Source: an uncultured Gammaproteobacteria bacterium
GTDB taxonomy: Bacteria > Patescibacteriota > Microgenomatia > UBA12405 > JAHJSD01
DNA: 64,000 bases
Reading direction: 5' to 3'
Assembly (NCBI GenBank): GCA_964428655.1
Contig: CAYRYE010000002.1
Location: 103,472-167,471 of the forward strand
The position numbers were made by a program, and so were the translations under genes. Every line of letters begins with the position of its first letter. Position 1 is the stretch's first letter. Below, piece after piece: positions 10,196 through 49,843 of this stretch. The notes beneath the pieces were generated by a model, which was not told where the DNA came from, made no database searches, and saw only the letters and a list, made by a program, of their open reading frames with translations.

Positions 10196-10267
10196 GGGCC
10201 CGTAGTATAACGGCTAGTACATCGCCATGGCATGGCGAAAATAGGGGTTCGATTCCCCTCGGGTCCA
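10196..10267 (+). tRNA. tRNA-Ala (anticodon GGC), no CCA
   Basis: Acceptor GGGCCCG/CGGGTCC with G3:U70 identity pair, anticodon loop ATGGCAT. Confidence 0.75.
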
Positions 10268-10269
10268 CT

Positions 10270-10343
10270 AGGGGCGTCGGTTAATGGTAAACCACGGGTC
10301 TCCAAAACCCGGACTGGGGGTTCGATTCCCTCCGCCCCTGCCA
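10270..10343 (+). tRNA. tRNA-Trp (anticodon CCA), CCA encoded
   Basis: Acceptor AGGGGCG/CGCCCCT, anticodon stem CGGGT/ACCCG with loop CTCCAAA, T-arm GGGGG-TTCGATT-CCCTC. Confidence 0.8.
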
Positions 10344-10345
10344 GC

Positions 10346-10663
10346 ATGAAAAAACGTCAAAAACAATCATCGCAAAATTTGGTCAAAGACATTGCCAAAA
10401 CTCTAGAACTAGCGCCAGAAAAAGTCAATCTTGCCAAGTTAGGTCAAGAACATCACAAAAAACCTCGCTTTGTTTACGGATTTACTACTCCTTCAGTAAG
10501 AAACGGGAAGAAAATCCCAGCTGGTTTTTTCAAAGTATCCGGCTCAAAGCACGCCAAACAAATAAAAAGAGAGAGTTTAGCCATGCAAATAGCAAATGAG
10601 CAACTGAATGTTCCTACTGTCGGCATAATCTCACCCACAAAAAAATGCCTGGTGGCGGCATGA
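10346..10663 (+). CDS. N-lobe fragment of an aminoglycoside-phosphotransferase (APH)/choline-kinase-like protein kinase-fold enzyme
   Basis: 105 aa; FVYGF...FFKVS (beta3 Lys), IKRESLAMQ (alphaC Glu), LNVPTV hinge-like segment; stop overlaps start of next ORF (ATGA). Confidence 0.5.
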   Translation: MKKRQKQSSQNLVKDIAKTLELAPEKVNLAKLGQEHHKKPRFVYGFTTPSVRNGKKIPAGFFKVSGSKHAKQIKRESLAMQIANEQLNVPTVGIISPTKKCLVAA

Positions 10664-11449: not shown

Positions 11450-12838
11450 ATGACAAAGAAATTTCGGAAATTTAAAAACCTAAAATCACGTCCACCGCTA
11501 AAGGAACGGCTTTTTCATAGCAAAGTTGTCAACCAAGCAATTGCTGATATTTCTCAGCGAATCAAGGATCCGGATATCAAACGAATGTTTAGCCACTGTT
11601 TACCTAATACCTTAGACACTACTGTTTGCTATCGAGAAAGCAAGGCCGGCAAACCCGATACTTTTATTGTGACAGGAGACATCCCGGCCATGTGGCTCCG
11701 TGATTCAACCAGTCAGATTTGGCCGTATCTAAGATTCATCCAACAAGACAAAAAGCTTCAAAAACTTTTTATTGGCCTGATCAATCGTCAAGTAAAAAAT
11801 ATTTTGATTGACCCGTATGCCAATGCCTTTAAAGACATTGGCGCCCCACGCACCAAAAGAAACCCCTGGTGGCCCAAGGGCAAAGCTTGGAAAAAAGGAG
11901 TCTGGGAAAGAAAGTATGAGCTTGACAGTCCTTGTGCTTTTTTTCGCCTGTCTGCTGGCTACTACGAAGCAACAATGGATACTGACCCCTTTGATAAAAA
12001 CTGGCTGAAAGCAGTTAAGCTGGCGATTAAGATTATCAAAGATGAGCAAAATACTCTTGATAAACAAAACCTTAAAACCATGTTTAGGTTTTTCATGCCT
12101 AACCGAAAACCCCACCCCGCCATTCGCTTGCGAGGCTATGGCTATCCTGGCAAAAAATGCGGACTCAGCCGAACTGTATTTAGACCGTCTGATGATGAAG
12201 CCGTGTTTCCCTATTTAATCCCTGCCAATGCTTTAGCGGTGGTCACTCTTCGCGGCGTTTCAAAAATACTCAAACAAAAAAAGCAAAATCAACTCGCCCA
12301 AGCAACAATCCATCTTGCCGGGGAAATTGACCAGGGAATTAAAAAATACGGCGTGGTCGAACACAAAAAGTTTGGCAAGGTCTTTGCCTACGAAATAGAT
12401 GGCTTCGGCTCACATTGTTTGATGGATGACCCAAACGTACCCAATTTACTGAGCCTGCCTTACTTGGGCTACTGTTTGCCAAACGATCCAACTTATTTGG
12501 CAACTAGAAAGTTAGTTCTTAGTAACTCAAATCCATTTTATGCTAAAGGTAAAGTAGCTTTCGGAATGACTAGCCCTCATCGGGGCACAGTTAACCAATT
12601 TTGGCCGATGGGAACAATCATGCAAGCCATGACGTCCAGCGATGAAAACGAAATTACTTCCTGTTTGAAAACACTTAAAAAAACCCATGCCGGTACTTAC
12701 TTTATGCATGAAAGCGTCCATGTTGATAATCCCAAGAAATTCACCAGATCGTGGTTTGCCTGGGCCAATTCGCTTTTTGGAGAATTAATCCTCAAGATTG
12801 CTGAAAAATATCCCAAGATTCTAGAAAAAAACTTATGA
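11450..12838 (+). CDS. glycoside hydrolase family 125-like (DUF1237, metal-independent exo-alpha-1,6-mannosidase family)
   Basis: 462 aa; [13 protein letters not shown] motif characteristic of GH125/DUF1237 (alpha/alpha)6-barrel proteins. Confidence 0.65.
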
Positions 12839-12869
12839 AAATTATCAAACGGGTTCTAACATAGTCCAT

Positions 12870-12890
12870 TAGCCCCTGCAGATTTGAAAT
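12870..12890. repeat. direct repeat copy 1 (tagcccctgcagatttgaaat)
   Basis: 19/21 nt identical to second copy at 13249-13269. Confidence 0.7.
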
Positions 12891-13248
12891 TTACAAGAGA
12901 AATAAAATGAACAAAAAAAAGAACGTTCTGATTCACTTTTTACAGCTGACGGTGAGTATAAGGACCCAGGAGGCGGAGGAAGAACCCGGCCTCTTCCAGA
13001 GCCTGGGATTTGTCCAAGATCACCAAGAGGTCAGCGTCCTGTTATTACCTTCCCAGGAATAGAATGCCCCCACTGTGGAGAAACACACACGAGAGAAAAC
13101 TTGTCTCCAGTTCGTCGAGCTGGAATAACTCGAAGAAGAACTTAAGCAATCAAAGCCAAGATAGCGCTGGCCGCTATTTTCCAAAGGTGTTAATCTGAGA
13201 TATCTGGAGGGTGTATGCGTTTTTGAATTCGGTTCGAAGTTTTCGATA

Positions 13249-13269
13249 TAGCCCCTGCCGCTTTGAAAT
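13249..13269. repeat. direct repeat copy 2 (tagcccctgccgctttgaaat)
   Basis: 19/21 nt identical to copy at 12870-12890; the pair brackets about 380 bp holding a 51-aa ORF. Confidence 0.7.
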
Positions 13270-13295
13270 CTTTTTGGCGCTACCCAAAACTCACT

Positions 13296-13330
13296 TGAAA
13301 AATAGAATAATATAGGACTATAATAACAAA
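13296..13330 (+). promoter_or_regulatory. sigma70-like promoter (TTGAAA - 18 - TATAAT) upstream of GC-rich segment
   Basis: cttgaaaaatagaataatataggactataat read directly. Confidence 0.45.
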
Positions 13331-13361
13331 GATTATTAATCCAATCATTTTATAAATCAAA

Positions 13362-13646
13362 ATGACGACAGAACATGGTGCCCCAGTGAACGAAGCGGAA
13401 GCGGTAAGGCTAGCTGCCCAAGAAATAGCAGCCCCCCTTTACCGCGCAGTCGCAAGAGGGCTTAGAGAGAAGGGACCAGTAATTGGAACGATTGGGCTGA
13501 TATTGCAGGCAACTCAGCGAGGATCTCCCATTAGACAAATTCTTGAAGGAACTTGCAAGAGACACAGAGTTCCCCTTGACAAAGCAGGCGGACCAACGCA
13601 CTCCAAAGCCGGCGCAACAATCGCCAGAGCTGTTTGGAGAGGATAG
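13362..13646 (+). CDS. hypothetical GC-rich small ORF (94 aa), possibly instead a structured RNA
   Basis: GC about 55% versus about 40% surroundings; alternative ORFs on opposite strand; no recognisable domain. Confidence 0.25.
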   Translation: MTTEHGAPVNEAEAVRLAAQEIAAPLYRAVARGLREKGPVIGTIGLILQATQRGSPIRQILEGTCKRHRVPLDKAGGPTHSKAGATIARAVWRG

Positions 13647-14037
13647 TGAAAAAGATTGCACGCCATTGATGTGGCTAGGTACTGACCGCTAAACAAAGTT
13701 CATCAACTCCTACCACTTCCAGGACTAGAGGCAACACATTGTACATGATTTGTTACTAGTTTAGGCCCATAGACTCGATCCACTATTGTCTTCCCACACT
13801 AAACAATACCAAATCTTTTTCGGTGTAAAGTTCTTTGCCTAGAACATGTCTCAGGCCTATGTGAGCACGTTGAAAAACGAACACCACGACCCTCAGAAAG
13901 CACTCTCAAGTTACCCAAATCTGTCCCCTTCGGAAGCTCACTTCCTTCAGCTAAAATTAGCCTCATTTTATTTATTATAAAAATTGAAGAAGTTCTTGTC
14001 AATAACAATACTATAAAACACCTGAAAAGTGTATCTA

Positions 14038-14673
14038 TTAATCCGGGATCCTTTTACCTCGTTGATCGTGGCAGCGATTTTCTTTCTCATCACAAGCTTC
14101 TTCGCAGGTAGGATCGTTTTCAAAAATTCGAGGACACTCACTAATAAATGGATCTTCAAACTCGGCGCATTCTCCACTAGGTGTACAGGCATAATAAACA
14201 ACGCAGCCATCATTAATACGAATATTGCTGCTGGAAACGCCGTAATTGTACTCACAATCAGAACCACAACCACTCTGACAACCAGCCTTTTCGATCCCTG
14301 AATCTTGAAAATTTTCTAAATTAGCTAGAACCTTAAACCATTGACTGCAATCATCATCTTCAGTTTGATATCCATAACCACTTCTTTTTGGATCACAAGG
14401 AAAATTAGGCAAATAAATCATATTGCCCAGCTCAAGTTTTTCCCCACACTCAGGAAGATCGCCAGGAAAACAACCAGCATCAAAAAAATAATCATAAAGA
14501 GCAGTTTTTATTTTCTCCAGTTCAGCTTTCCTTTTCCCGTCCCTGGCCTTTTTCATTTGAGTCGAGATTAACAATGAACTAAATAAGATAATAAGGCCGA
14601 TAAGAACAATAATTACTAGGAGTTCAAAGAGACTAACCCCTTTAAAAGAATTGCCTCTGGAAGCAATTGTCAT
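14038..14673 (-). CDS. type IV pilin-like protein (prepilin N-terminal cleavage/methylation domain) with Cys-rich C-terminal domain
   Basis: KG|VSLFELLVIIVLIGLI prepilin motif with Glu at +5; 16 Cys in C-terminal 130 aa. Confidence 0.75.
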   Translation of the reverse strand: MTIASRGNSFKGVSLFELLVIIVLIGLIILFSSLLISTQMKKARDGKRKAELEKIKTALYDYFFDAGCFPGDLPECGEKLELGNMIYLPNFPCDPKRSGYGYQTEDDDCSQWFKVLANLENFQDSGIEKAGCQSGCGSDCEYNYGVSSSNIRINDGCVVYYACTPSGECAEFEDPFISECPRIFENDPTCEEACDEKENRCHDQRGKRIPD

Positions 14674-14723
14674 ATTTCAATATAACACACTGATTAACTT
14701 ACACACTCCCGGAGCGCGTAATA

Positions 14724-16759: not shown

Positions 16760-16980
16760 TTCTGCTCCTTTGCCAATTCAAATCTATAAAAAGCTTTACC
16801 ATTGCGGGTTATTTTTTCCAAAAACATATCTTTGGGCCTAACCCAAATCCGACCATCGTCTAAATGAATATAAACCACCATATCTTCTTCTGTTTCGCTA
16901 TGCTTCGCTTCAAACAAAACTTTCATTTTATAACCTTTAAAATGATTGTAAAGACCACCAATAATTAACTTTCTTGACAT
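16756..16980 (-). CDS. DUF1653-like small protein
   Basis: 74 aa; YNHFKGYKMKV...MVVYIHLDDGRIWVRP resembles DUF1653 signature (Y.HYKGG.Y ... WVRP). Confidence 0.45.
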   Translation of the reverse strand: MSRKLIIGGLYNHFKGYKMKVLFEAKHSETEEDMVVYIHLDDGRIWVRPKDMFLEKITRNGKAFYRFELAKEQK

Positions 16981-19070
16981 TAAAACCTCCCTTCATTCTT
17001 ATAACGATCTTTTAATTCGGCGATTTTACCTTTATTCCACCGACTAGTGAGGCTGAAAAAGCCAGAAACGCGAGTAATATAGTCAACATTTTTACTCTTG
17101 CAATAGGGACATTTTTTCAATAACCCTCGAGCTGTTTTTCGGCAATCATCGCAAAGGGTAAATTCAGGAGAAAAAGCAACCAGCTGGTTTTGTGTTTGAT
17201 AAAAAGTCTTTTCAATAAAATTGGCAATTGACTGCGGCGGCGGCTTTTGCTCACCCAGCCAAATATGCGTCATAGCACCAGCATCAATCAAGGGGTGGAA
17301 TAAGCCTTCTTTAGCCACCCGCTCAATAGGATCTATATTAGCGGAAACATTCATCTGAGTTGAATTAGTATAATAGACTGCCCCTGTTTTAAGATTGCCT
17401 TTAACCACTTGCTTTGCCTGCTCCGGGAACCATTCCAAATCCAGTTTAGCCAAACGATAAGAAGTCCCTTCTGCCGGAGTCTGTTCAGTGCAAATCCGAA
17501 TTCCTAATTCCTTACTCTGCTTCTGGGTACAAAGCCTCATAAAGGAAATTACTTTTAGGCCAAATTTTATAGCCTCATCTGATTGATGAAGCTCCTGTCC
17601 CAAATGATACTGAATCATCTCGTTTAAACCATAAATAGTAGTCAGCTCAACTGAACGGTCAAAACGATAATAAGGATAAGGATCATTTTCCTGCCGTGTG
17701 CAAAGGACCGCCAAAGGCCCAGCCGCTCCCAAGTCAAGAATCCTTTTAATAAAACGCCGTTTTTGAAGATGCGCTTGGGCAATTAAATCCAGCCGCTTTT
17801 TTAACAAAGAAAAAAGTTTCTTTTCATTATGTCCTGCTTTGTAAGCGATCCGCGGCAAATTAACCGTCAGCCAGCTGGTAGAGGAATGTCTCATTAATTC
17901 CGGCTTTTTGGTTTCAAGCAGATCCTGCTTGTCCAACTTAAAGGATAAACGACAGCACTGAGAAATCCGCACACTGCTTCCCCGATCAAAAAAGAACTCG
18001 GTATTCCCCTTTTCAATAGCTACCTGGGCGGCTAATTCCAAAAATTCTTTATGCCCCGGAGTCTGCCAAAATTTTTCCGTCATATGAAAATTCGGCTTAG
18101 GCCAAAAAAAGGGTCTCCCGACTCCGTCTCCGCCAAGATAAACTTTCATCAAGGCAGTCAAAAATCGCTGAGCGTCCTTTTGATAATATTTATAAGTTTT
18201 GCCTGTATATTTACCTCCTGGGCCAATGGCCGGAGTGTTAGCATAATGATCTGGTATCTCCCAATAAAGATTAATGTCGGAAAAAACCGCCTGGCCGCCC
18301 TTGGCAACATTTTGCATATTAAATTCGTAAACCATTAATTGAGCCAAATCATAAAGTTCTTTATCAGACATCCCAGTCAAAAAGGGAGCTAGAAAGATGT
18401 TGACTGCCTCCCAACCAATTGCTCCGGAAAAATTAACCTGCAGCATACAGGAAAATTTTATCAAATGCAGAATTAAAACATGAGCGTGCTTAGCAGGCTT
18501 GGCCATTGCCAACGAAGCAGCTACATTCAAACCGTATTTTTTAACATATTCAAGATTATTACCACAGCAATAAGGCCGATCAGGAAAAGTCAACTTGTGC
18601 AAATGAATATCCCCGCGTAAATGAGCATCGGCCACTCGAGGCGAATAGATCTCAGTCAAAGCATAATCTTTTTTCATTGAACCGGCCAAAGTCATATTGG
18701 TTGTTTCCGGAGTGTGGGGATTATTAGAAGAAACCTGCTCGTTATGAGCTAAGATAACATTGCCCACATCATAAATCGGCAATCCCAAGCGCCGATATTT
18801 ACGGTATTCTCTCTGCAAGCCCCGGTTAAGCAATTCCGCTCCCACTAAAGCCCGAACCAGGGCGCCGGTAATACGCTTGATCTTTAATCGCCGAACTTTT
18901 CGTTCTACTTTTTCGGCAACTTCTTTTAATAAACCATCAGTTAAACCGGTTTCTTGCTTCAAAGATTTAATAATATAACAGTTATCCCAAGAGCCAATTT
19001 CCTCACTGGTAGTTCTCACTTGCATAGTTAAATCCCTAATCTCGTCGCGTTTTGTTGGTACCGGGCTCAT
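16980..19070 (-). CDS. nrdD: anaerobic ribonucleoside-triphosphate reductase (class III), paralog with N-terminal ATP-cone and RVSGFF glycyl-radical motif
   Basis: 696 aa; HLRGDIHLHKL...YCCGNNLEY NrdD N-terminal motif, CCRLSF, C-terminal Zn ribbon CDDC...CPYC and ITRVSGFFS glycyl-radical loop; about 100-aa ATP-cone-like N-terminus. Confidence 0.8.
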   Translation of the reverse strand: MSPVPTKRDEIRDLTMQVRTTSEEIGSWDNCYIIKSLKQETGLTDGLLKEVAEKVERKVRRLKIKRITGALVRALVGAELLNRGLQREYRKYRRLGLPIYDVGNVILAHNEQVSSNNPHTPETTNMTLAGSMKKDYALTEIYSPRVADAHLRGDIHLHKLTFPDRPYCCGNNLEYVKKYGLNVAASLAMAKPAKHAHVLILHLIKFSCMLQVNFSGAIGWEAVNIFLAPFLTGMSDKELYDLAQLMVYEFNMQNVAKGGQAVFSDINLYWEIPDHYANTPAIGPGGKYTGKTYKYYQKDAQRFLTALMKVYLGGDGVGRPFFWPKPNFHMTEKFWQTPGHKEFLELAAQVAIEKGNTEFFFDRGSSVRISQCCRLSFKLDKQDLLETKKPELMRHSSTSWLTVNLPRIAYKAGHNEKKLFSLLKKRLDLIAQAHLQKRRFIKRILDLGAAGPLAVLCTRQENDPYPYYRFDRSVELTTIYGLNEMIQYHLGQELHQSDEAIKFGLKVISFMRLCTQKQSKELGIRICTEQTPAEGTSYRLAKLDLEWFPEQAKQVVKGNLKTGAVYYTNSTQMNVSANIDPIERVAKEGLFHPLIDAGAMTHIWLGEQKPPPQSIANFIEKTFYQTQNQLVAFSPEFTLCDDCRKTARGLLKKCPYCKSKNVDYITRVSGFFSLTSRWNKGKIAELKDRYKNEGRF

Positions 19071-20956
19071 AGTTTCTTATTTCTAAATCGCTCTTTTAAC
19101 TCGTGCCTCTTCCCTTTATTCCATTGCTTAACAAAAGAATAATAACCGACTACTCTTGTTATCCAATCCACATCTTCACTACCGCAAAAACTGCATTTCT
19201 TTTTAATACCCCGCATTACCCGCCCGCAATCATCACAAATAGTGAACTCCGGACTAAAAGCTACTTGGACATTCTGCGTCTGATTAAAAATTTTCCAAAT
19301 CAACCTGGCCATCGACTGCGGCGACGGTCGAGACTCCCCTAGCCAAATATGACTCAAAGCGCCACCCTGCATCATTGGGTGAAACTTTCCTTCAACCTCA
19401 ATTCTTTCCAAAACATCTATTTCGGCGTCAACATCTAATTGGGAAGAATTTGTGTAGTAAACTTCATCTGTTTTTGGATTGCCGTGAACAATTTTTTTAC
19501 TCTCTTCCGGATAGCAAATCAAGTCTAGCTTGGCAAAACGATAGTTAGTTGATTCCGCCGGGTCTTGGTCTAAAAGTATTTTTAACCCCGACTTCTTACT
19601 TTCCTCCTCACACTTTTTTTTCATAAAAGCGGTTATCCGCAAGCCAAATTTAAGCGCTTCATCAGACTGGTGCAGAGCCCTACCCAAATGGAATCTGACC
19701 GCATCAGAAAGACCGCCAACTGCATTCATGAAAGTCATTTTATCAATTCGTAAATAAGGTTCTTTGTCACTTTTGGCAGTTATGGTCAACATACCCAAAG
19801 GCCCGGCAAGCCCCATTGCTAACAACTTTTTCAAAAATTTATACTTCTGCAGGTGAGCTTTAGTCAACAGTTGCAATTTCTCCTCTAAAATCTTGAAAAA
19901 ATTCTCATCATTATGTTTCGCTTGATAAGCTATCCGAGGTAGATTGATGGTCAAATAAGGACAGGCGGCATAACGCATCCGCCATGGCTTTTTGGCATCT
20001 TTTAAATCTTCTTTGGATAACTCGAACTGAACCCGACAGCACTCAGAAATTTTAGCAGTTGCTCCCCGGTCAAAAATAAAATAAGGATTGCCCATTTTCG
20101 AAGCAACATCACAGACATGTTCCAAAAACTCTTTATGACCCGGTGTCTTCCAAAATTTAGTAGTAATATGCACATTTGGTTTTGGCCAGAAAAAGGGCCT
20201 GCCCTTAGCATCGCCCCTTTTATAAATATTCAGTATTTGCCAAACCAAAGCCTGCGATTCTTTAACATAGTCTTTATAAAGCTTGCCCGTATATTCACCT
20301 CGGGGGCCAATGGCCGGCACATTGGCAAAATGATCAGGAATTTCCCAATAAAGATTAATGTCGGAAAAAACCGGCTGGGCCCCATGGGGACCAACTGTTT
20401 GATTAAATTGATAAATTATCCTCTGGGCTACCTGTCTTATTTCCCTATCCCCCATCCCTCCTAAATACGGGGCCATATACATATTTAGGGCATCCCAGCC
20501 AATGGCGCCGCCGAAATGGGCCCGCAGAGCCATGGTCATTCTCATCATATGATCAACCAGAGCATCAATGTGGCCGGCTGGTTTAACAGCGGCAAAAGAA
20601 GCATATTTAGTTAAGCCAAATTTTTTGACATATTCCAAGCTCTGGCCAGAACAATAGGGTCTGTCAATAAAGCCCAGCTTGTGAAGCTTTATATCTCCTT
20701 TTCTATGAGCTTCAGCAACATCTTTGGAAAAAACGTTCCGCAAAGCATATTCTTTTTTTAAAAACTCGGAAAGAGTAAAAGAGGTGCCTTCCGGACTATT
20801 TATTTTGTTGGCATCATCTTTGCTGCCTTCCGAGGCAATAACACCGCCTATTTCACCCAAAGTGATAATAATTTTTTTTCCCAGGCCATTGACTCTCCCT
20901 ATTTCGGTGAAATCAGTGGGGTCAAAACTATCGGTTTCTTTTTTTCTAATTGGCAT
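19067..20956 (-). CDS. nrdD: anaerobic ribonucleoside-triphosphate reductase (class III), paralog lacking ATP-cone, RVVGYY glycyl-radical motif
   Basis: 629 aa; HRKGDIKLHKL...YCSGQSLEY, ECCRVQF, Zn ribbon CDDC...CSFC, ITRVVGYYS; paralogous to downstream copy (shared FSDINLYWEIPDH, GRPFFWPKPN). Confidence 0.8.
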   Translation of the reverse strand: MPIRKKETDSFDPTDFTEIGRVNGLGKKIIITLGEIGGVIASEGSKDDANKINSPEGTSFTLSEFLKKEYALRNVFSKDVAEAHRKGDIKLHKLGFIDRPYCSGQSLEYVKKFGLTKYASFAAVKPAGHIDALVDHMMRMTMALRAHFGGAIGWDALNMYMAPYLGGMGDREIRQVAQRIIYQFNQTVGPHGAQPVFSDINLYWEIPDHFANVPAIGPRGEYTGKLYKDYVKESQALVWQILNIYKRGDAKGRPFFWPKPNVHITTKFWKTPGHKEFLEHVCDVASKMGNPYFIFDRGATAKISECCRVQFELSKEDLKDAKKPWRMRYAACPYLTINLPRIAYQAKHNDENFFKILEEKLQLLTKAHLQKYKFLKKLLAMGLAGPLGMLTITAKSDKEPYLRIDKMTFMNAVGGLSDAVRFHLGRALHQSDEALKFGLRITAFMKKKCEEESKKSGLKILLDQDPAESTNYRFAKLDLICYPEESKKIVHGNPKTDEVYYTNSSQLDVDAEIDVLERIEVEGKFHPMMQGGALSHIWLGESRPSPQSMARLIWKIFNQTQNVQVAFSPEFTICDDCGRVMRGIKKKCSFCGSEDVDWITRVVGYYSFVKQWNKGKRHELKERFRNKKL

Positions 20957-30987: not shown

Positions 30988-31526
30988 TCCTTTAATTCCT
31001 GCAAAACTTCAACAAAAATTTTTTCTGTCTTCTCTTCCTTACCAAAAAGCATTAAAACAAAATCTTCTGGTTCAATATTAGCAGGAGGCTTCCCAATACC
31101 AATTCTGATCCGCCAAAAATCTTTAGTCCCTAAGTTTTCGATAACTGATTCTACTCCATGATGCCCGGCGGCTCCTTTTCCAAATTGAATTTTAAATTCA
31201 CCAAAGGGAATGTCCAAGTCGTCGTGAATGAGATATAAATGATTGATGATTGATGATTGCCGTGCGTCGCCAAAGGTTTTGCCGACAACACGATGATTAA
31301 TAAATTTAAGAAGTTTTTTTAGGCAGTTTCCCGATTCGTTCATAAAACAGTTAAGAAAAACTATCTTCCAATTATTCTCCAACCTTATAATTTCTCCACT
31401 CTTTCGACTGTTCACTATCGCCCCATCATTCCGCTTCCTGATTAAATACTGACCAAACATTTTTCCCACATTGTGGCGTGTTTTGGAATATTTCTCTCCA
31501 GGGTTTCCAAGACAGACAAAGATCAT
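30981..31526 (-). CDS. pth: peptidyl-tRNA hydrolase with about 13-aa insertion carrying a repeat element
   Basis: 181 aa; MIFVCLGNPGEKYSKTRHNVG, catalytic His, ...GHNGV-like GHHGV; insertion HRVVGKTFGDARQSSI coincides with tandem repeat 31240-31259 and shared element 31260-31284. Confidence 0.85.
   Translation of the reverse strand: MIFVCLGNPGEKYSKTRHNVGKMFGQYLIRKRNDGAIVNSRKSGEIIRLENNWKIVFLNCFMNESGNCLKKLLKFINHRVVGKTFGDARQSSIINHLYLIHDDLDIPFGEFKIQFGKGAAGHHGVESVIENLGTKDFWRIRIGIGKPPANIEPEDFVLMLFGKEEKTEKIFVEVLQELKEC
31240..31259. repeat. tandem repeat tgattga x3 inside pth
   Basis: tgattgatgattgatgattg read directly. Confidence 0.8.
31260..31284. repeat. 25-nt hairpin-capable element (copy 1) ccgtgcgtcgccaaaggttttgccg, shared with 32479-32503
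   Basis: 24/25 identity with second copy; imperfect palindrome gtcgccaaa/tttgccgac. Confidence 0.75.
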
Positions 31527-31892: not shown

Positions 31893-32279
31893 CTATAATT
31901 TTAACTGCTTTTCTAGATTTTCTAATTCTCCTGGTAATTGCAAATTATTTAAATCTAAATTCTTCGGTAAATTTGGGATATTTGGTGCTGGCATGATTCT
32001 TTCCCACTGAATCTGCTGCAAAGTCTTTTCTACCCAACCACTCATTATGCGGCTCAAATTCATCTGGGAAAAAAGATAAGCAATTACCCCAAAAATCACA
32101 ATATAGCCAAAAAGAGTTCCTAACGTATGAAAAACGCCGGCCAGAAAATTAAAGAAGGCAAATTTAAAAGGATTGGCCGAGTAAATCATGTGCCGGCCGG
32201 AAGTTTTCAACTCACCAAGCTGCTGGTTCAACTTTTTAAGTTGTTCGGTTAAATCTTTCTCTTGCTCCATTGTGGGCAC
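31893..32279 (-). CDS. hypothetical membrane protein (128 aa, 2 TM, coiled-coil ends)
   Basis: Hydrophobic core FKFAFFNFLAGVFHTLGTLFGYIVIFGVIAYLF. Confidence 0.35.
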   Translation of the reverse strand: MPTMEQEKDLTEQLKKLNQQLGELKTSGRHMIYSANPFKFAFFNFLAGVFHTLGTLFGYIVIFGVIAYLFSQMNLSRIMSGWVEKTLQQIQWERIMPAPNIPNLPKNLDLNNLQLPGELENLEKQLKL

Positions 32280-32346
32280 GCCAGGATTCGAACCTGGGAC
32301 CCCTGACTTATAAGATCAGTGCTCTAACCACTGAGCTACGCGCCCG
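32274..32346 (-). tRNA. tRNA-Ile (anticodon TAT as read; AUA-decoding type), no CCA
   Basis: Reverse complement folds as GGGCGCG-TA-GCTC-AGTGGTTA-GAGC-A-CTGAT-CTTATAA-GTCAG-GGGTC-CCAGG-TTCGAAT-CCTGG-CGTGCCC-A. Confidence 0.6.
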
Positions 32347-32369: not shown

Positions 32370-33656
32370 TCAATTAAAGTATACCAAATTGCCAGCAATT
32401 TCAACAAATTTTATTTTTGTCAACACCGGGTAGCCTGTCCCGACGTTACATCGGGGTTGACTTATACCTAAACACCGGCCGTGCGTCGCCAAAGGCTTTG
32501 CCGGCGGCATGGAGGCAATCGGAATATAATTATCTGATAAGCCTTTGCCATCTGGCCAAACAATGGCCATTGCCTTTTTGCCAATCTGACTTTGCCAGAA
32601 TCGCAAGCGAAGCTCTTTTTCCAGTTTAGCTAATTTTTTGGCCCTAATTTTTTTAGTCCTCTCATCAATTTGATTTTCCATTTCAGCCGCTGGCGTTCCT
32701 TTTCTTAACGAATATCTAAAAATGTGAATTTTGCCAAATTTAATTTTTTTCACAAAGTCTAAAGTTTTCTGAAAATCTTTTTCCGTCTCGCCGGGAAAAC
32801 CAACAATAATATCAGTGGTGATATTCAATCCTTTTCCTATTCTGCGTCGCACAATTTTGACTATTTTTTCGAACTGCTCGGTTGTGTAACACCGATTCAT
32901 TAATTTTAAAATCCGATTACTGCCAGACTGCAAACTCAGATGTAAATGCCTGGCTAATCTATCCCTTCCTATTTTTTTATAAATAGAAATCAGCTTTTCG
33001 ACATCAATCATTGGGTTTATGGAGCCCAGCCGCAAAAGTTTAACATCAGTTTTTTTCAAAACTTCTTCAACCAAGTCAATCCAACTCTTGCCATTATCAC
33101 TGTATTGGGAAACGTTTTGACCGGTTAAAACTATTTCCAAAGCGCCGTTGTTAATTGCTCTCTCTGACTGACAAACTATTTCCTTTACAGGAACACTAAT
33201 AGGTTTTCCTCGAATCAAACAAGGTAAGCAATAACTACAGGCGTTAGCACAGCCGGTTTGGATTTTGATTAAAACTCTTGAATCTTTGTCTCTTTTGCCA
33301 GCCGCGAGTCCTACTGGAGTGTTTTTATTACTAATTTTTTCCCACTTTTTCTCATTCTCCAACAGTTCATCTATTCTCTCTGGAACTCGGCCGCCAAACT
33401 TTTGAATTTTGTCCACCCAACAACCAGCAACTACTAACTTTGCTTTGGGATTCTTACGCCGCAACTGCCGAATCGCCTGCCGAGTTTCTTTCTCTGCCTT
33501 ATGAGTAACTACACAGGTATTTAAAACCAATAAATCTGCCTTCTCGGCCTCTTTTGCTTTCTTCCAGCCACTTCCCAAAAGCAAACCCTCCAGTTTCTGA
33601 CTCTCCGCCTGATTCAACCGACAACCCAAAGTTTGGATATAAAAAAGATTTTTCAT
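32370..33656 (-). CDS. MiaB/MtaB-family radical SAM methylthiotransferase with atypical C-terminal extension
   Basis: 428 aa; N-terminal MTTase domain IQTLGCRLNQAES, radical SAM CANACSYCLPC; C-terminal about 45 aa contains the shared 25-nt element in a different frame from the pth copy. Confidence 0.75.
   Translation of the reverse strand: MKNLFYIQTLGCRLNQAESQKLEGLLLGSGWKKAKEAEKADLLVLNTCVVTHKAEKETRQAIRQLRRKNPKAKLVVAGCWVDKIQKFGGRVPERIDELLENEKKWEKISNKNTPVGLAAGKRDKDSRVLIKIQTGCANACSYCLPCLIRGKPISVPVKEIVCQSERAINNGALEIVLTGQNVSQYSDNGKSWIDLVEEVLKKTDVKLLRLGSINPMIDVEKLISIYKKIGRDRLARHLHLSLQSGSNRILKLMNRCYTTEQFEKIVKIVRRRIGKGLNITTDIIVGFPGETEKDFQKTLDFVKKIKFGKIHIFRYSLRKGTPAAEMENQIDERTKKIRAKKLAKLEKELRLRFWQSQIGKKAMAIVWPDGKGLSDNYIPIASMPPAKPLATHGRCLGISQPRCNVGTGYPVLTKIKFVEIAGNLVYFN
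32479..32503. repeat. 25-nt hairpin-capable element (copy 2) ccgtgcgtcgccaaaggctttgccg
   Basis: see copy 1 at 31260-31284. Confidence 0.75.
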
Positions 33657-34106: not shown

Positions 34107-36005
34107 TTAACCCCTTTTCCTTCTTCGAGTAACTCTGGTTACCACCGCTCTGGCTTTTTCACTCAAAGTAGCTCCAGCGGACAAAGCTGAAACAACCGGA
34201 GCAACAACTCTTATTATCGCCCCCTCAACCTTTAAAGTAGTGGCAACTGTCGGACCAATATTCCGAACTCTCTCCCAAAACCGAATACTCCTCATAGCTT
34301 CTCCAGCATCACCAATTGCTGTTCCCGCCGCCCCAGTATCGGTGGCCCCCGCAGCTTCAACAACAGCGGTACCGGCTTCACCTAATTGACTCCACAGAGA
34401 AGTTAACTTTTCTCCAGCTTGGGCAACTACCCCATCAACACTGACTCCTAAGGCTTCTGCCCCCGCAGCAACCCCTCGGAGAGCAACATAACTTAAAGCG
34501 GCTACGGCTGCTGCCTCAGCCACTTTAACTCCTGTTTCTGCCGCTTTAGACATATCCAGTCTTCTACTAACCGAAAAAACTCTTGCCTGAGTCATCTTTT
34601 CTAAGGCCACTCTTTCCTTAACACCGTCTTCAATAATCATCATCAGAGCTTTAACTTCGTGCAAAGCGGAAATATTTCCCTGATCCAATTGTTCCGCCAA
34701 GCTTTCACTAGTCAATCTTTCAACTGCTGTCTGTTCGGCTAACTCAGTCCTCATTATCCGACCATAAATCCCTTCTGCAAAATCATCTCCCGGTTCTCCA
34801 ACAGAAGTTTCAACACTACCTTGTCCACCCATAGTTACCTCACAACCCAATTGATCAGCAACATTTAGACGGGGAACAGCATTAAAAGCAGCCCTTTTTA
34901 GAGGATCGCTCAATGAATCAGCATGTTCTTCCTCCCAACTCCCTAATTCTCCAGAATTTAAAACATGCTCAGGTAATTCTGCCACCAGAGGATTAAGCGC
35001 TTCTCCTACTTGTTTTTGTAAAGCAGCTAAATTTTCTCCCCTTTCTGCTAGAATCCCCTCAAGTCTACCATCAATCTCCCTATCAATTGCCTCCCTCATC
35101 GTTTCTGGACCAGTCTCTTCTTCTACTAGAATCTGTCCAATGACTGTCTCATAGAGAGTTGCTACTTCAACCAATCCTGCCCCTCTTAATTTCCTCTTTG
35201 CTCTCCGAGCTAATTTTTTCTCTCCCCGAACTCTGACTTGATCAACGACAGAAATTAAGCCTTTATCACCACCAAACCTATCCACCAATTCACTAGGAAC
35301 AATTCCATCCCTTGCTCTACCAACAACTTGTTGAGCGACAGCATTTTGGCCAGCAACTAAAATAACAGCTGTTTCTTCATGCTGTTCAACCATTTGAAGG
35401 ACTTCCTGTAATCTGGCCAATAAAATCTTTGCCTCGGCATGGCTAGGAACTTTACCCAATTCTCCGGCAATAACCTGTAGATAGCTGATCCCTCTTTTTT
35501 CTACCTTAGCAGCGCTTAAGTCACCTCCTGCTGCAGTAGCTTTTGCTAAAGCTTTAGCAATTTGCTCTGTCAGAATTTGATCAACCTCACCCATGTGGCC
35601 AGTATATTCAGTCTCTATTTCTCCTGGCTCCATATCAGGAGCGGATGCCTTCATTGGCTCAACATGCGTTTGGGCCTTCCTAAAACTTTTTCCCTTTCTT
35701 TTTGCTTCTTTCCTCTCGTTCCTAGCTCTGTCAATTCTTTCTTGAGCCGCATCTTTCTTTCCCTTAACCTTTTCGACTGCAACTTTCACTTTTGGCTCAG
35801 TTTGAGCCACAATTTCAGCCTGTTTACCACCAAGCTCATCTAAAGCTCCCTCTAGAGATTCAAAAGCAAAACCAGTGGTAACAATGTTCCGAGCTGCCTC
35901 CATCTGGGCATCGATCTCTCCTTGAGGAACTTTTTCCACTAGCCTTTTTGGAATATCAACTCTCGGAGCAGCAGTTTCGGAAGTAATAACTGGTGTTTCA
36001 CTCAC
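34107..36005 (-). CDS. hypothetical large Ala/Val/Glu-rich protein (632 aa), compositionally atypical
   Basis: Uninterrupted 1.9 kb ORF, GC clearly above the window average, no signal peptide or known motif. Confidence 0.45.
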   Translation of the reverse strand: MSETPVITSETAAPRVDIPKRLVEKVPQGEIDAQMEAARNIVTTGFAFESLEGALDELGGKQAEIVAQTEPKVKVAVEKVKGKKDAAQERIDRARNERKEAKRKGKSFRKAQTHVEPMKASAPDMEPGEIETEYTGHMGEVDQILTEQIAKALAKATAAGGDLSAAKVEKRGISYLQVIAGELGKVPSHAEAKILLARLQEVLQMVEQHEETAVILVAGQNAVAQQVVGRARDGIVPSELVDRFGGDKGLISVVDQVRVRGEKKLARRAKRKLRGAGLVEVATLYETVIGQILVEEETGPETMREAIDREIDGRLEGILAERGENLAALQKQVGEALNPLVAELPEHVLNSGELGSWEEEHADSLSDPLKRAAFNAVPRLNVADQLGCEVTMGGQGSVETSVGEPGDDFAEGIYGRIMRTELAEQTAVERLTSESLAEQLDQGNISALHEVKALMMIIEDGVKERVALEKMTQARVFSVSRRLDMSKAAETGVKVAEAAAVAALSYVALRGVAAGAEALGVSVDGVVAQAGEKLTSLWSQLGEAGTAVVEAAGATDTGAAGTAIGDAGEAMRSIRFWERVRNIGPTVATTLKVEGAIIRVVAPVVSALSAGATLSEKARAVVTRVTRRRKRG

Positions 36006-38987: not shown

Positions 38988-39042
38988 CTATTGACCAATA
39001 TAGCACCCCAATACAAGAAAGACAATTAAGTCCTAATAAATT

Positions 39043-49756: not shown

Positions 49757-49825
49757 GTCGCTTTAAACCCGAAACTTCGGGGTAAAAAGCGGCATGACCA
49801 AAATCCTTCGCGAGAAGGGTTTTTT
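49757..49825 (+). promoter_or_regulatory. ileS 5' leader: long hairpin (49757-49793) and intrinsic-terminator-like hairpin ccttcgcgagaagg + T-run (49805-49825) ending about 19 nt before the ATG
   Basis: Stems and T-run read directly; TACAAT at 49832-49837 only 6 nt before ATG. Confidence 0.45.
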
Positions 49826-49843
49826 GTTTGTTACAATAGAAAT

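What the first reader, a model, noticed from the sequence alone, without database searches (positions are those of the whole stretch)
12839..14037. Atypical 1.2-kb region: direct repeats bracketing a mini-ORF, own promoter, GC-rich segment
Two 21-nt direct repeats (tagcccctgcRgMtttgaaat; 12870 and 13249) bracket about 380 bp containing a 51-aa ORF (12906-13061, MNKKKNVLIHF...). Immediately after repeat 2 comes a well-spaced promoter (TTGAAA-18-TATAAT), then a 300-nt GC-rich stretch (about 55% GC against about 40%) with ambiguous coding potential on both strands. About 390 bp of non-coding DNA follows before the convergent pilin gene. The repeat pair looks like att-like or MITE-like boundaries, and the GC-rich stretch like a structured RNA or a horizontally acquired small gene.
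Basis: seen in the sequence. Interest (0 to 1): 0.55.

Follow-up and report, generated by a model that had tools for sequence, protein, structure and literature searches.

The report
Small orphan genes, probable toxin–antitoxin relic
The odd 1.2-kb gap in this candidate-phyla-radiation (CPR) bacterial genome is neither a jumping element nor a structured RNA: it holds two or three small species-specific genes, one apparently a broken toxin gene, plus a real but unexplained 21-base repeat, and it is an ordinary kind of genomic debris.

Summary
The 21-nt direct repeat (12870, 13249; 19/21) is real and non-random. The TTGAAA-18-TATAAT promoter exists. The GC-rich stretch peaks at 53%, not 55%.

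The interpretation mostly fails. No further repeat copy exists in 83 kb of this genome, and public hits to the pattern are unrelated, so it is not MITE-like. Rfam and fold energies give no sign of a structured RNA.

The GC-rich stretch is the 94-aa ORF (13362-13646). It scores as coding. Its GC excess sits in codon positions 1 and 2. It shows weak but reproducible similarity to the C-terminal two-thirds of COG2405/DUF3368 PIN-like toxins, without the catalytic residues.

Upstream, 12907-13145 has strong codon periodicity that runs past the stop of the '51-aa mini-ORF'. The only frame open throughout has no start codon. It joins ATG 12907 only through a -1 slip in an A8 run. It ends where a full-length PIN gene would begin, as in real antitoxin-toxin operons.

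The '390 bp non-coding' part carries the window's only perfect promoter (minus strand) followed by a 55-aa leaderless ORF.

No relative shares any of this; the gap lies beyond a synteny break. Best reading: a decayed toxin-antitoxin-type cassette plus one orphan gene. Interest is low.

The parts
12870..12890 (+). Repeat copy R1 (TAGCCCCTGCAGATTTGAAAT). It lies 31 nt after the GH125 stop and 16 nt before ATG 12907.
13249..13269 (+). Repeat copy R2 (TAGCCCCTGCCGCTTTGAAAT), 25 nt before the -35 box of the + strand promoter.
12852..12859 (+). GGTTCTAA box exactly 10 nt upstream of R1. Its twin GGTTCGAA lies at 13231-13238, exactly 10 nt upstream of R2. This may extend the repeat into a bipartite site, but it was noticed post hoc.
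   Evidence: direct reading; alignment
12907..13145 (+). Unit 1, an 80-codon coding-like stretch. GC by phase is .58/.61/.24 (chi-square p=1.7e-6). The periodicity continues 80 nt past the stop of the 51-aa ORF and ends near 13142. The only frame open throughout is 12906-13142 (stop TAA 13143-13145), the same frame as ORF94, and it has no start codon. It is reachable from ATG 12907 only by a -1 shift.
12913..12920 (+). A8 run that contains the A_AAA_AAG heptamer in the ATG 12907 frame. This is the point where a -1 ribosomal slip, or one extra A in the RNA, would join the ATG to the open periodic frame. The A8 state is identical in two independent assemblies.
   Evidence: shift-site knowledge from PMC5009743
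12907..13062 (+). Its hexamer score is -5.5 bits. Its synonymous codon use (-0.19) lies outside the range of host genes. It probably reads unit 1 out of frame, or it is a foreign gene with a premature stop.
13146..13361 (.). AT-rich stretch (36% GC) with no codon periodicity and six stops in the ORF94 frame. It occupies the place of the missing N-terminal third of the PIN-like gene. It holds R2 and the + strand promoter.
13295..13324 (+). Promoter P+ (TTGAAA-18-TATAAT, 11/12), 37 nt upstream of ATG 13362.
13362..13646 (+). ORF94, the GC-rich stretch. Its coding score is +26.7 bits and GC1/2/3 is .63/.56/.40. Residues 10-63 align to positions 81-140 of DUF3368/COG2405 PIN-like toxins. A 6-residue gap removes the family's LLIDER motif with its invariant Asp.
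13799..13966 (-). ORF55, with its ATG 7 nt after the -10 box (leaderless type). Its synonymous codon use is host-like (0.109) and its hexamer score is +8.4 bits. JGI and NCBI annotation call it a gene. It has no homologue.
13974..14002 (-). Promoter P- (TTGACA-17-TATAAT, 12/12), the only perfect match in the 64 kb. It starts 36 nt after the pilin stop and points into the gap, convergent with P+.

Best explanation
The gap is a species-specific patch of small protein-coding units at a synteny break of a CPR (Microgenomates/Shapirobacteria-like) genome. Its core, 12907-13646, is most likely the worn-down remains of a two-gene toxin-antitoxin-type cassette.

Shown:
(a) ORF94 is a coding-type frame.
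(b) ORF94 resembles, colinearly, the last two-thirds of COG2405/DUF3368 PIN-like (VapC-type) toxins. It lacks the N-terminal ~80 residues and the LLIDER Asp.
(c) An 80-codon stretch upstream is strongly codon-periodic, but no intact ORF with a start codon covers it.
(d) That stretch ends at 13145, and the ancestral PIN start is predicted at 13143-13149.
(e) Two near-perfect convergent promoters lie inside the gap.

Inferred:
- The upstream unit stood where the antitoxin or regulator gene stands. It is now either dead (a frameshift in an A8 run, or a nonsense codon) or expressed only through slippage.
- The 5' third of the toxin gene was lost or overwritten by AT-rich DNA that carries R2 and a new promoter.
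- ORF94 is therefore a non-catalytic fragment that is still transcribed.
- ORF55 is a separate leaderless orphan gene. With no terminator in between, its transcript may run antisense into ORF94.
- The two 21-nt copies sit where control DNA would be, one upstream of each + strand unit. They are most simply either a shared protein-binding site or the scar of the event that split the toxin gene. The evidence does not decide which.
For: ORF94 as a coding frame:
- Its hexamer score of +26.7 bits matches the window's real small genes such as L28 and L33, and it is the best of six frames along its whole length.
- GC1/GC2 are .63/.56 against host values of .47/.35, while GC3 is .40 against host .36.

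Similarity of ORF94 to DUF3368/COG2405:
- Pfam PF11848 gives E=0.012.
- A profile built here from 10 annotated DUF3368 toxins ranks ORF94 first of 1830 six-frame segments, E=0.015 against 1.9 for the next.
- hhalign gives 77% probability, P=2e-5, over 52 columns.
- The real score is 33.8; 300 shuffles have mean 11.0 and maximum 19.7.
- The part outside the Pfam model matches on its own: NEAEAVRLAAQ against GEAEAIALAME, P=0.019, reached by 0 of 150 shuffles, and at the right distance.

Geometry:
- The predicted start is 13143-13149, directly after TAA 13143-13145. The predicted end is within 7 codons of the real stop.
- In nine of the ten real DUF3368 loci fetched, the upstream partner gene (72-110 codons; UPF0175 in nine loci, Phd-type in one) abuts or overlaps the toxin start.

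Upstream unit:
- Periodicity has p=1.7e-6 and persists past the ORF51 stop.
- Only frame 0 is open throughout, and its codon choice is host-like.

Promoters: only five matches of >=11/12 occur in 128 kb of strand, and two of them are here.

Genome style: there is no Shine-Dalgarno sequence, and -10 boxes sit close to the ATGs.

Flexible region:
- Relatives with 76-80% identical NrdD keep the nrd block, as far as the VTT gene in the closest one (L032), and then differ. They often carry integrases or toxin-antitoxin genes there.
- Nothing in the gap matches them.
Against: - The family similarity is weak. The Pfam score of 16 bits is below the 27.3-bit gathering score. About 20 sequences were scanned, which weakens E=0.012.
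- Neither phmmer against 1.84 billion representatives nor the word-indexed search found anything but the protein itself. The PDB, NCBIfam and PADLOC searches found nothing; PHROGs gave one weak hit of unknown function (E=0.059).
- No relic of the PIN N-terminus or of a UPF0175 antitoxin is detectable upstream.
- The upstream unit has a neutral to negative host hexamer score. Its frame is not settled: the ORF51 frame fits the general rule of an A/T-rich second codon position equally well.
- The openness of frame 0, given its composition, has only p~0.05 (my calculation from the frequencies).
- ORF94's synonymous codon use is below that of host genes.
- The AlphaFold model was of low confidence (pLDDT 62) and its fold search was empty.
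- Nothing ties the 21-nt repeat to the cassette except its position.
Confidence: 0.5

Rival explanations
1. These are unrelated lineage-specific orphan genes. ORF94, ORF55 and perhaps unit 1 are young or fast-evolving small genes with no toxin-antitoxin ancestry. The DUF3368 resemblance is chance. The 21-mer is a shared operator for a regulator that controls the two + strand units.
For: - All three ORFs are singleton clusters among about 15 billion proteins, with no homologues.
- The family signal is below curated thresholds.
- The promoters are strong and specific.
- A GGTTCNAA box lies at the same 10-nt spacing upstream of both copies, which suits a bipartite binding site.
Against: - The DUF3368 similarity exceeds every one of 300 shuffles by a wide margin and is colinear over two independent segments.
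- The predicted gene start and end fit the local geometry.
Confidence: 0.25
2. This is a small mobile or integrated element. R1 and R2 are att-like or target-duplication boundaries of a 358-bp insert that carries unit 1.
For: - The repeat has sharp edges, and its flanks are not significantly similar.
- The region lies at a synteny break where relatives carry integrases.
- A second short direct-repeat pair exists elsewhere in the window.
Against: - There are no inverted termini, and no integrase or transposase relic in any frame.
- No tRNA gene lies at the site.
- No other copy exists in 83 kb, and there is no related copy in the public collections.
- 21 bp is far longer than a usual transposon target duplication.
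- The GGTTCNAA box upstream of both copies is not expected if the left flanks are unrelated.
Confidence: 0.08
3. The GC-rich stretch, or the whole gap, is a structured non-coding RNA driven by one of the two promoters.
For: - Strong promoters sit next to sequence with no recognisable protein family.
- One local fold, 13245-13400, has z=-2.6.
Against: - No Rfam match, even at E<=10.
- Fold z-scores are unremarkable on both strands over 13350-13950.
- The stretch has codon periodicity and a positive coding score.
- No related sequences exist, so covariation cannot be tested.
Confidence: 0.04
4. The gap is a plain intergenic spacer. The ORFs, promoters and repeat are chance features of decaying DNA with no present function.
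For: - The region is unique to one species-level lineage.
- In-frame stops or frameshifts break up any longer reading.
- A8 runs are common in this genome: 14 A8+ and 8 T8+ runs on the + strand of the window.
Against: - Periodicity of p=1.7e-6 is among the strongest 3% of windows of that length.
- Two of the five best promoter matches fall within this 1.2 kb.
- The repeat did not arise in 40 shuffles.
- The GC excess is kept in codon positions 1 and 2 only.
Confidence: 0.1

Closest known systems
COG2405 / DUF3368 (PF11848) PIN-like VapC-type toxins with an upstream UPF0175 or Phd-type antitoxin (classified in PMC5499597)
   Same: - ORF94 residues 10-63 align colinearly with family positions 81-140 (GEAEAIALA ... 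R.VA ... GT.G.LL.AK..G).
- The gene end lies where the family ends.
- An antitoxin-sized unit ends where the toxin should start.
- The region is variable, and toxin-antitoxin modules are common there in relatives (L033, L035).
   Different: - The N-terminal ~80 residues, with the first catalytic Asp, are absent.
- The LLIDER motif with the invariant Asp is deleted.
- The score is below the Pfam gathering threshold.
- The upstream unit shows no UPF0175 or Phd similarity and is itself interrupted.
- ORF94 has its own promoter, 216 nt away from the upstream unit, instead of being co-transcribed.
-1 frameshifting at A_AAA_AAG (E. coli dnaX, IS3-family elements), and transcriptional slippage on A/T runs that compensates indels (Thermus dnaX, Buchnera, Blochmannia), reviewed in PMC5009743
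   Same: The heptamer A_AAA_AAG lies in the zero frame of ATG 12907. A -1 shift, or one extra A in the RNA, leads into the only frame that is open across the periodic stretch.
   Different: - The site lies at codons 3-5 rather than within a long upstream ORF.
- No stem-loop lies within 5-10 nt downstream, and this organism has no SD-like stimulator.
- The run is A8, whereas the review describes slippage on runs of 9.
- A plain inactivating indel explains the same facts.
MITEs and attL/attR direct repeats of integrated elements
   Same: A pair of short direct repeats brackets a few hundred bases in a variable region.
   Different: - There are no inverted termini.
- There are only two copies.
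- There is no recombinase and no tRNA target.
- 21 bp is too long for a target duplication.
Leaderless small genes and convergent sense/antisense pairs (the layout of type I toxin-antitoxin loci such as txpA/RatA; from my own knowledge)
   Same: Two strong convergent promoters lie about 650 nt apart with no recognisable terminator between the two stop codons.
   Different: Neither product is a short hydrophobic peptide, and no overlap of the transcripts has been shown.

Membership tests
COG2405 / DUF3368 PIN-like toxin | Match to Pfam PF11848 at or above the gathering score (27.3 bits) | tested here: not met
   16.0 bits, E=0.012, with only 15 of 46 model positions aligned
COG2405 / DUF3368 PIN-like toxin | Significant colinear similarity to a profile of full-length family members | tested here: inconclusive
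   HMMER profile of 10 members: best of 1830 segments, E=0.015. hhalign: 77% probability, P=2e-5. No shuffle out of 300 comes near. The upstream segment on its own gives P=0.019.
COG2405 / DUF3368 PIN-like toxin | Complete PIN core with the N-terminal Asp and the later invariant acidic residues (E82 and D100 in alignment A1) | tested here: not met
   ORF94 begins at family position ~72. The Glu of GE is kept (NEAEA), but a 6-residue gap removes LLIDER with D100. No N-terminal relic is found upstream in any frame.
COG2405 / DUF3368 PIN-like toxin | Antitoxin gene (UPF0175 or Phd type) directly upstream | tested here: not met
   A UPF0175 profile finds nothing in the gap. Only the position and size of unit 1 fit.
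MITE / dispersed repeat element | Terminal inverted repeats and multiple copies in the genome | tested here: not met
   No terminal inverted repeats at the ends. Only two copies in 83 kb, even with <=5 mismatches. The public hits are unrelated.
Integrated element with att sites | Direct repeats flanking an insert that encodes or adjoins a recombinase, often at a tRNA gene, with empty sites in relatives | tested here: inconclusive
   Direct repeats are present. There is no recombinase relic and no tRNA gene at the site. No relative is close enough to show an empty site.
Known structured RNA families (Rfam 15) | Covariance-model match, and thermodynamic stability beyond shuffles | tested here: not met
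   No match at gathering score, and only two chance-level hits at E>2. Sliding z-scores are near 0 over the GC-rich stretch.
Programmed -1 ribosomal frameshift (dnaX / IS3 type) | Slippery heptamer X_XXY_YYZ in the zero frame | tested here: met
   A_AAA_AAG at 12915-12921 in the frame of ATG 12907 (PMC5009743)
Programmed -1 ribosomal frameshift (dnaX / IS3 type) | Stimulatory structure 5-9 nt downstream and/or an upstream SD-like element, and conservation of the two-frame layout in relatives | tested here: not met
   The nearest stable hairpin I could read (GGAAGA-8 nt-TCTTCC, 12969-12988) is ~47 nt downstream. The genome lacks SD sequences. No relatives carry the locus.

The most novel reading that the evidence does not exclude
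The gap is a working, lineage-specific three-gene module of a CPR bacterium, made of:
- a small basic CxxC-containing protein whose synthesis depends on slippage in an A8 run (an on/off or dosage switch);
- a non-catalytic protein domesticated from the C-terminal part of a PIN toxin;
- a convergent leaderless 55-aa gene whose transcript runs antisense to the PIN-derived gene.
The two 21-nt boxes (with GGTTCNAA 10 nt upstream) would act as operators for the module's own DNA-binding component.
Probability: 0.1. Interest if true: 0.5.

Novelty: new member of a known kind. Interest (0 to 1): 0.25.

Why it matters
The finding matters little beyond annotation. It turns a puzzling 'atypical region' into an ordinary case: a flexible spot next to a conserved operon that collects and erodes small acquired genes, here probably a PIN-type toxin-antitoxin pair.

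Three points are of modest use:
- It shows how codon-phase composition can reveal a damaged or recoded gene where ORF lists show only a misleading mini-ORF.
- It documents that this CPR genome uses sigma-70-like promoters placed directly before start codons, with no Shine-Dalgarno sequences.
- It leaves a short, statistically real repeat pair unexplained. If that pair were an operator for a slippage-dependent small gene, it would be a rare regulatory example in CPR bacteria.

Tried and rejected
- GH130 pseudogene. Relatives place GH130 genes next to GH125, and the gap has about the right size. tblastn of three GH130 proteins against the gap gave nothing better than E~1. Rejected.
- Known RNA families and stable folding. 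Rfam at gathering score and at E<=10 and sliding fold z-scores were negative.
- Dispersed repeat. Negative in the window with 3 mismatches, in 83 kb with 5 mismatches, in metagenome contigs (5 unrelated hits) and in viral contigs (0 hits).
- Extended duplication around the repeat. Gapped alignment of the flanks against shuffles gave left p~0.5 and right p~0.08.
- Homologues of ORF94. The exhaustive phmmer search and the word-indexed search returned only the protein itself. PDB, NCBIfam, PADLOC and tblastn on plasmids gave nothing, and PHROGs gave only one weak hit of unknown function (E=0.059).
- Structure route. The single-sequence AlphaFold model had pLDDT 61.6 and its Foldseek search against the PDB was empty. 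afdb50 was not available.
- Relics of the PIN N-terminus or a UPF0175 antitoxin in the upstream frames. None found.
- Homologues of the frameshift-corrected 80-aa product. None in phages or the PDB. Pfam gave only a weak zinc-ribbon-type hit, E=0.017.
- Synteny through GH125 relatives (71-77% identity) and NrdD relatives (76-80%). No relative carries any part of the gap, so no covariation or dN/dS test was possible.
- Population variants. All three ORFs are singleton 90% clusters, and the two assemblies are identical over the 1199 nt.
Full report
**Setting.** The window comes from a 238-kb metagenome contig (JGI 3300008517, Ga0111034_1176554). The organism is a CPR/Patescibacteria bacterium. 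Its GH125 and NrdD proteins find their best relatives, at 71-80% identity, in Microgenomates/Shapirobacteria-type MAGs. The finding covers the 1199-nt gap between a GH125 alpha-mannosidase gene (+, 11450-12838) and a type IV pilin-like gene (-, 14038-14673).

**Check of the observation.**
- They are not chance. The degenerate pattern with up to 3 mismatches occurs only twice in 64 kb, against 0.01 expected.
- The window has only four local pairs (<=1500 nt apart) of 21-mers with >=19 matches. Two of these are tRNA paralogues. Forty block-shuffled windows produced none.
- The promoter TTGAAA-18-TATAAT is at 13295-13324.
- The GC-rich stretch peaks at 53% (13365-13664), the fourth highest 300-nt window, behind two tRNA clusters and one gene.
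- The 51-aa ORF is at 12907-13062.

**What the repeat is not.**
- No further copy exists in the window or in two flanking loci of the same genome (L030, L031), 83 kb in all, even with five mismatches.
- A scan of public metagenome contigs for TAGCCCCTGCNGNTTTGAAAT found five loci. Each has one copy in an unrelated context and a different GC content, as chance predicts for 19 fixed bases. Viral contigs gave none.
- No inverted termini bracket the segment.
- The flanks of the two copies are not significantly alike. The one exception is a GGTTCNAA box exactly 10 nt upstream of each copy, which I noticed post hoc.
- The pair is therefore a real, local, two-copy repeat, not a MITE or a dispersed family.

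**No structured RNA.** Rfam finds only the window's 11 tRNAs at gathering score. In the gap it finds nothing better than E=2.6. Sliding 150-nt folds on both strands have z-scores between about -1.4 and +1 over the GC-rich stretch. The only outliers lie around 13250-13450 (z down to -3.3), the AT-rich promoter/leader region.

**The GC-rich stretch is ORF94.**
- A hexamer model trained on the window's 33 long ORFs gives ORF94 (13362-13646) +26.7 bits. This is the same range as the L28, L33 and thioredoxin-like genes. The opposite-strand 83-aa ORF scores -67.8.
- Its frame is the best of six along its whole length.
- GC1/GC2/GC3 are .63/.56/.40 against host means of .47/.35/.36 (sd about .04). 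The GC excess therefore lies in the amino-acid-determining positions, and the third position is near the host value.
- It has no detectable homologue. Only the protein itself was found among 1.84 billion representatives and in the word-indexed search, and it is a singleton cluster.

**A weak but reproducible family signal.**
- Pfam gives DUF3368 (PF11848) at E=0.012, 16 bits, below the 27.3-bit cut-off. DUF3368 marks COG2405, a VapC-like PIN family of predicted toxins (PMC5499597).
- I fetched ten annotated DUF3368 genes, with their partner genes, from plasmids and built profiles from them.
- The HMMER profile ranks ORF94 first of 1830 six-frame segments of the window, E=0.015 against 1.9 for the next.
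- hhalign gives 77% probability, P=2e-5. It aligns family positions 81-140 to ORF94 residues 10-63, with a 6-residue gap that removes LLIDER and its invariant Asp.
- The real score is 33.8. Three hundred shuffles of ORF94 have mean 11.0 and maximum 19.7, and the reversed sequence scores 18.1.
- The part that lies outside the Pfam model matches independently: NEAEAVRLAAQ against GEAEAIALAME, P=0.019, reached by 0 of 150 shuffles.
- Because I scanned about 20 sequences and chose the family after the fact, I rate true homology at roughly 75%.
- If the homology is real, ORF94 is a fragment. It lacks the first ~80 residues and two of the acidic residues that PIN nucleases need, so it cannot be an active toxin. 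That last step is an inference from what is known about PIN domains (PMC5499597).

**The stretch between the repeats.**
- GC content by position modulo 3 over 12906-13142 is .58/.61/.24 (chi-square p=1.7e-6). Only 2.7% of 237-nt windows in the 64 kb reach p<1e-4.
- The periodicity continues in the same phase for 80 nt past the stop of the 51-aa ORF (13063-13142, p=0.01) and then vanishes. No intact ORF therefore accounts for it.
- The only frame open over the whole periodic stretch is frame 0 (12906-13142, 79 codons, TAA at 13143-13145), the same frame as ORF94. Its synonymous codon choice is host-like: mean log2 RSCU is 0.10, against 0.16 +/- 0.075 for host chunks.
- The ORF51 frame scores -0.19, lower than every host chunk.
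- Frame 0 has no start codon, and a stop lies immediately before it. The only ATG (12907) is one base out of frame and is followed by an A8 run (12913-12920) that forms A_AAA_AAG in its own frame.
- A -1 ribosomal slip, or one extra A in the RNA, would join the ATG to frame 0. A_AAA_AAG is the dnaX shift site, and slippage on A runs compensates indels in endosymbionts (PMC5009743).
- No nearby stimulatory structure is evident, and A8 runs are common here (22 A8+/T8+ runs on the window's + strand). A simple inactivating indel is at least as likely as programmed slippage.
- The alternative is that the ORF51 frame is the original one (a foreign gene with GC3 of .6 and a premature stop). Position-specific base composition cannot exclude this.
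- Under either reading the unit is damaged or needs recoding.
- The product has no homologue. Pfam gives a weak zinc-ribbon-type hit at E=0.017, and phages and the PDB give nothing.

**Geometry.**
- Anchoring on the alignments, a full-length family member would start at 13143-13149 and end within 7 codons of ORF94's real stop.
- The predicted start falls directly after the TAA of the upstream unit.
- In nine of the ten real loci, the upstream partner gene (72-110 codons) overlaps or abuts the toxin start. Unit 1 has 80 codons.
- The 216 nt between the units (13146-13361) would then replace the toxin's N-terminal third. This stretch has host-like 36% GC, no periodicity and six in-frame stops. 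It contains R2 and the promoter P+.
- No PIN N-terminus or UPF0175 relic is detectable there or in unit 1.

**The right-hand 390 bp.**
- It is not empty. TTGACA-17-TATAAT (14002..13974, minus strand) is the only 12/12 promoter match in the window. With P+, it is one of just five matches of >=11/12. At least two of the others stand before known transcription units: the tRNA cluster and the gene at 36005.
- Seven nt after its -10 box comes the ATG of a 55-aa ORF (13966..13799).
- This genome has no Shine-Dalgarno motifs, and many genes have a -10-like box 5-12 nt before the ATG, so the layout is typical for it.
- ORF55 has host-like codon choice (0.109), the best score of its frames tested, and +8.4 hexamer bits. 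JGI and NCBI call it a gene. It has no homologue or family.
- No terminator-like site lies between the ORF94 and ORF55 stops. Convergent overlap of the two transcripts is possible but not shown.

**Context in relatives.**
- GH125 relatives (71-77% identity) have different neighbours, often GH130 genes. The gap holds no GH130 relic.
- NrdD relatives (76-80%) keep the core nrd block. The closest (L032, 80%) keeps it as far as the VTT gene; the others diverge sooner. Beyond it they differ: tRNAs and a membrane protein in L032, and integrases, a TraG-like gene or toxin-antitoxin pairs in the others.
- Neither the pilin nor any part of the gap matches them.
- The gap therefore lies in a flexible spot. 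No comparative test (covariation, dN/dS, empty site) was possible.

**Verdict.**
The fallback reading, an acquired small gene, is right in spirit.
- Most likely (about 0.5) the core is a worn-down PIN-type toxin-antitoxin cassette. Its toxin fragment is still expressed from a new promoter, its upstream partner is frameshifted or slippage-dependent, and an unrelated leaderless orphan gene lies beside it.
- The 21-nt repeat is real. It sits in front of each + strand unit, but whether it is an operator or a rearrangement scar remains open.
- This is an ordinary kind of genomic feature. Interest is 0.25.

Noticed in passing
window 31260-31285 and 32479-32504: A second local direct-repeat pair, GCCGTGCGTCGCCAAAGG[T/C]TTTGCCG (26 nt, 25/26), lies 1219 nt apart. 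The copies sit inside two different minus-strand genes (peptidyl-tRNA-hydrolase-like and MiaB-like, named from my reading of the translations) in different reading phases. They bracket tRNA-Ile and two small ORFs.
   Followed up: partly
window 32272-32345 (-): A tRNA-Ile gene has anticodon TAT. This is unusual in bacteria, which normally read AUA with a lysidine-modified CAU tRNA (from my own knowledge).
   Followed up: no
whole window; examples at 14674-14698, 49820-49843, 38988-39010: No Shine-Dalgarno motif occurs upstream of the 33 long genes. Many have a -10-like box 5-12 nt before the ATG, which suggests widespread leaderless or very short-leader mRNAs.
   Followed up: partly
window 16980-19070 and 19067-20956 (-): Two tandem NrdD (anaerobic ribonucleotide reductase) paralogues overlap by 4 nt. 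The arrangement is kept in all four relatives examined.
   Followed up: no
window 11450-12838; loci L011, L012: GH125 is paired with one or two GH130 genes in two of the closest GH125 relatives examined (L011, L012), but it stands alone here. There is no GH130 anywhere in the 64 kb.
   Followed up: yes
window 13245-13400 (+): Bases CCGCUUUG of R2 can pair with CGAAGCGG in ORF94 codons 10-12. The 156-nt fold has z=-2.6. If transcription starts at P+, this pairing cannot form in the RNA.
   Followed up: partly
window 12888-12910 and 13963-13985: The start regions of unit 1 (+) and ORF55 (-) share AAATAAAATGA. This appears as a 23-nt, 78% inverted repeat spanning most of the gap. It may simply reflect the genome's usual AT-rich start context.
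   Followed up: no
window 14038-14673 (-): The 211-aa pilin-like protein clusters at 90% identity with a 172-aa version from the NCBI copy of the contig (257 kb against 238 kb at JGI). This suggests a different start call or a variant.
   Followed up: no
window 10232-10663 (+): The 143-aa ORF in the mechanical ORF list begins inside tRNA-Ala and tRNA-Trp (10196-10343). JGI calls a 105-aa gene (10346-10663) instead.
   Followed up: no
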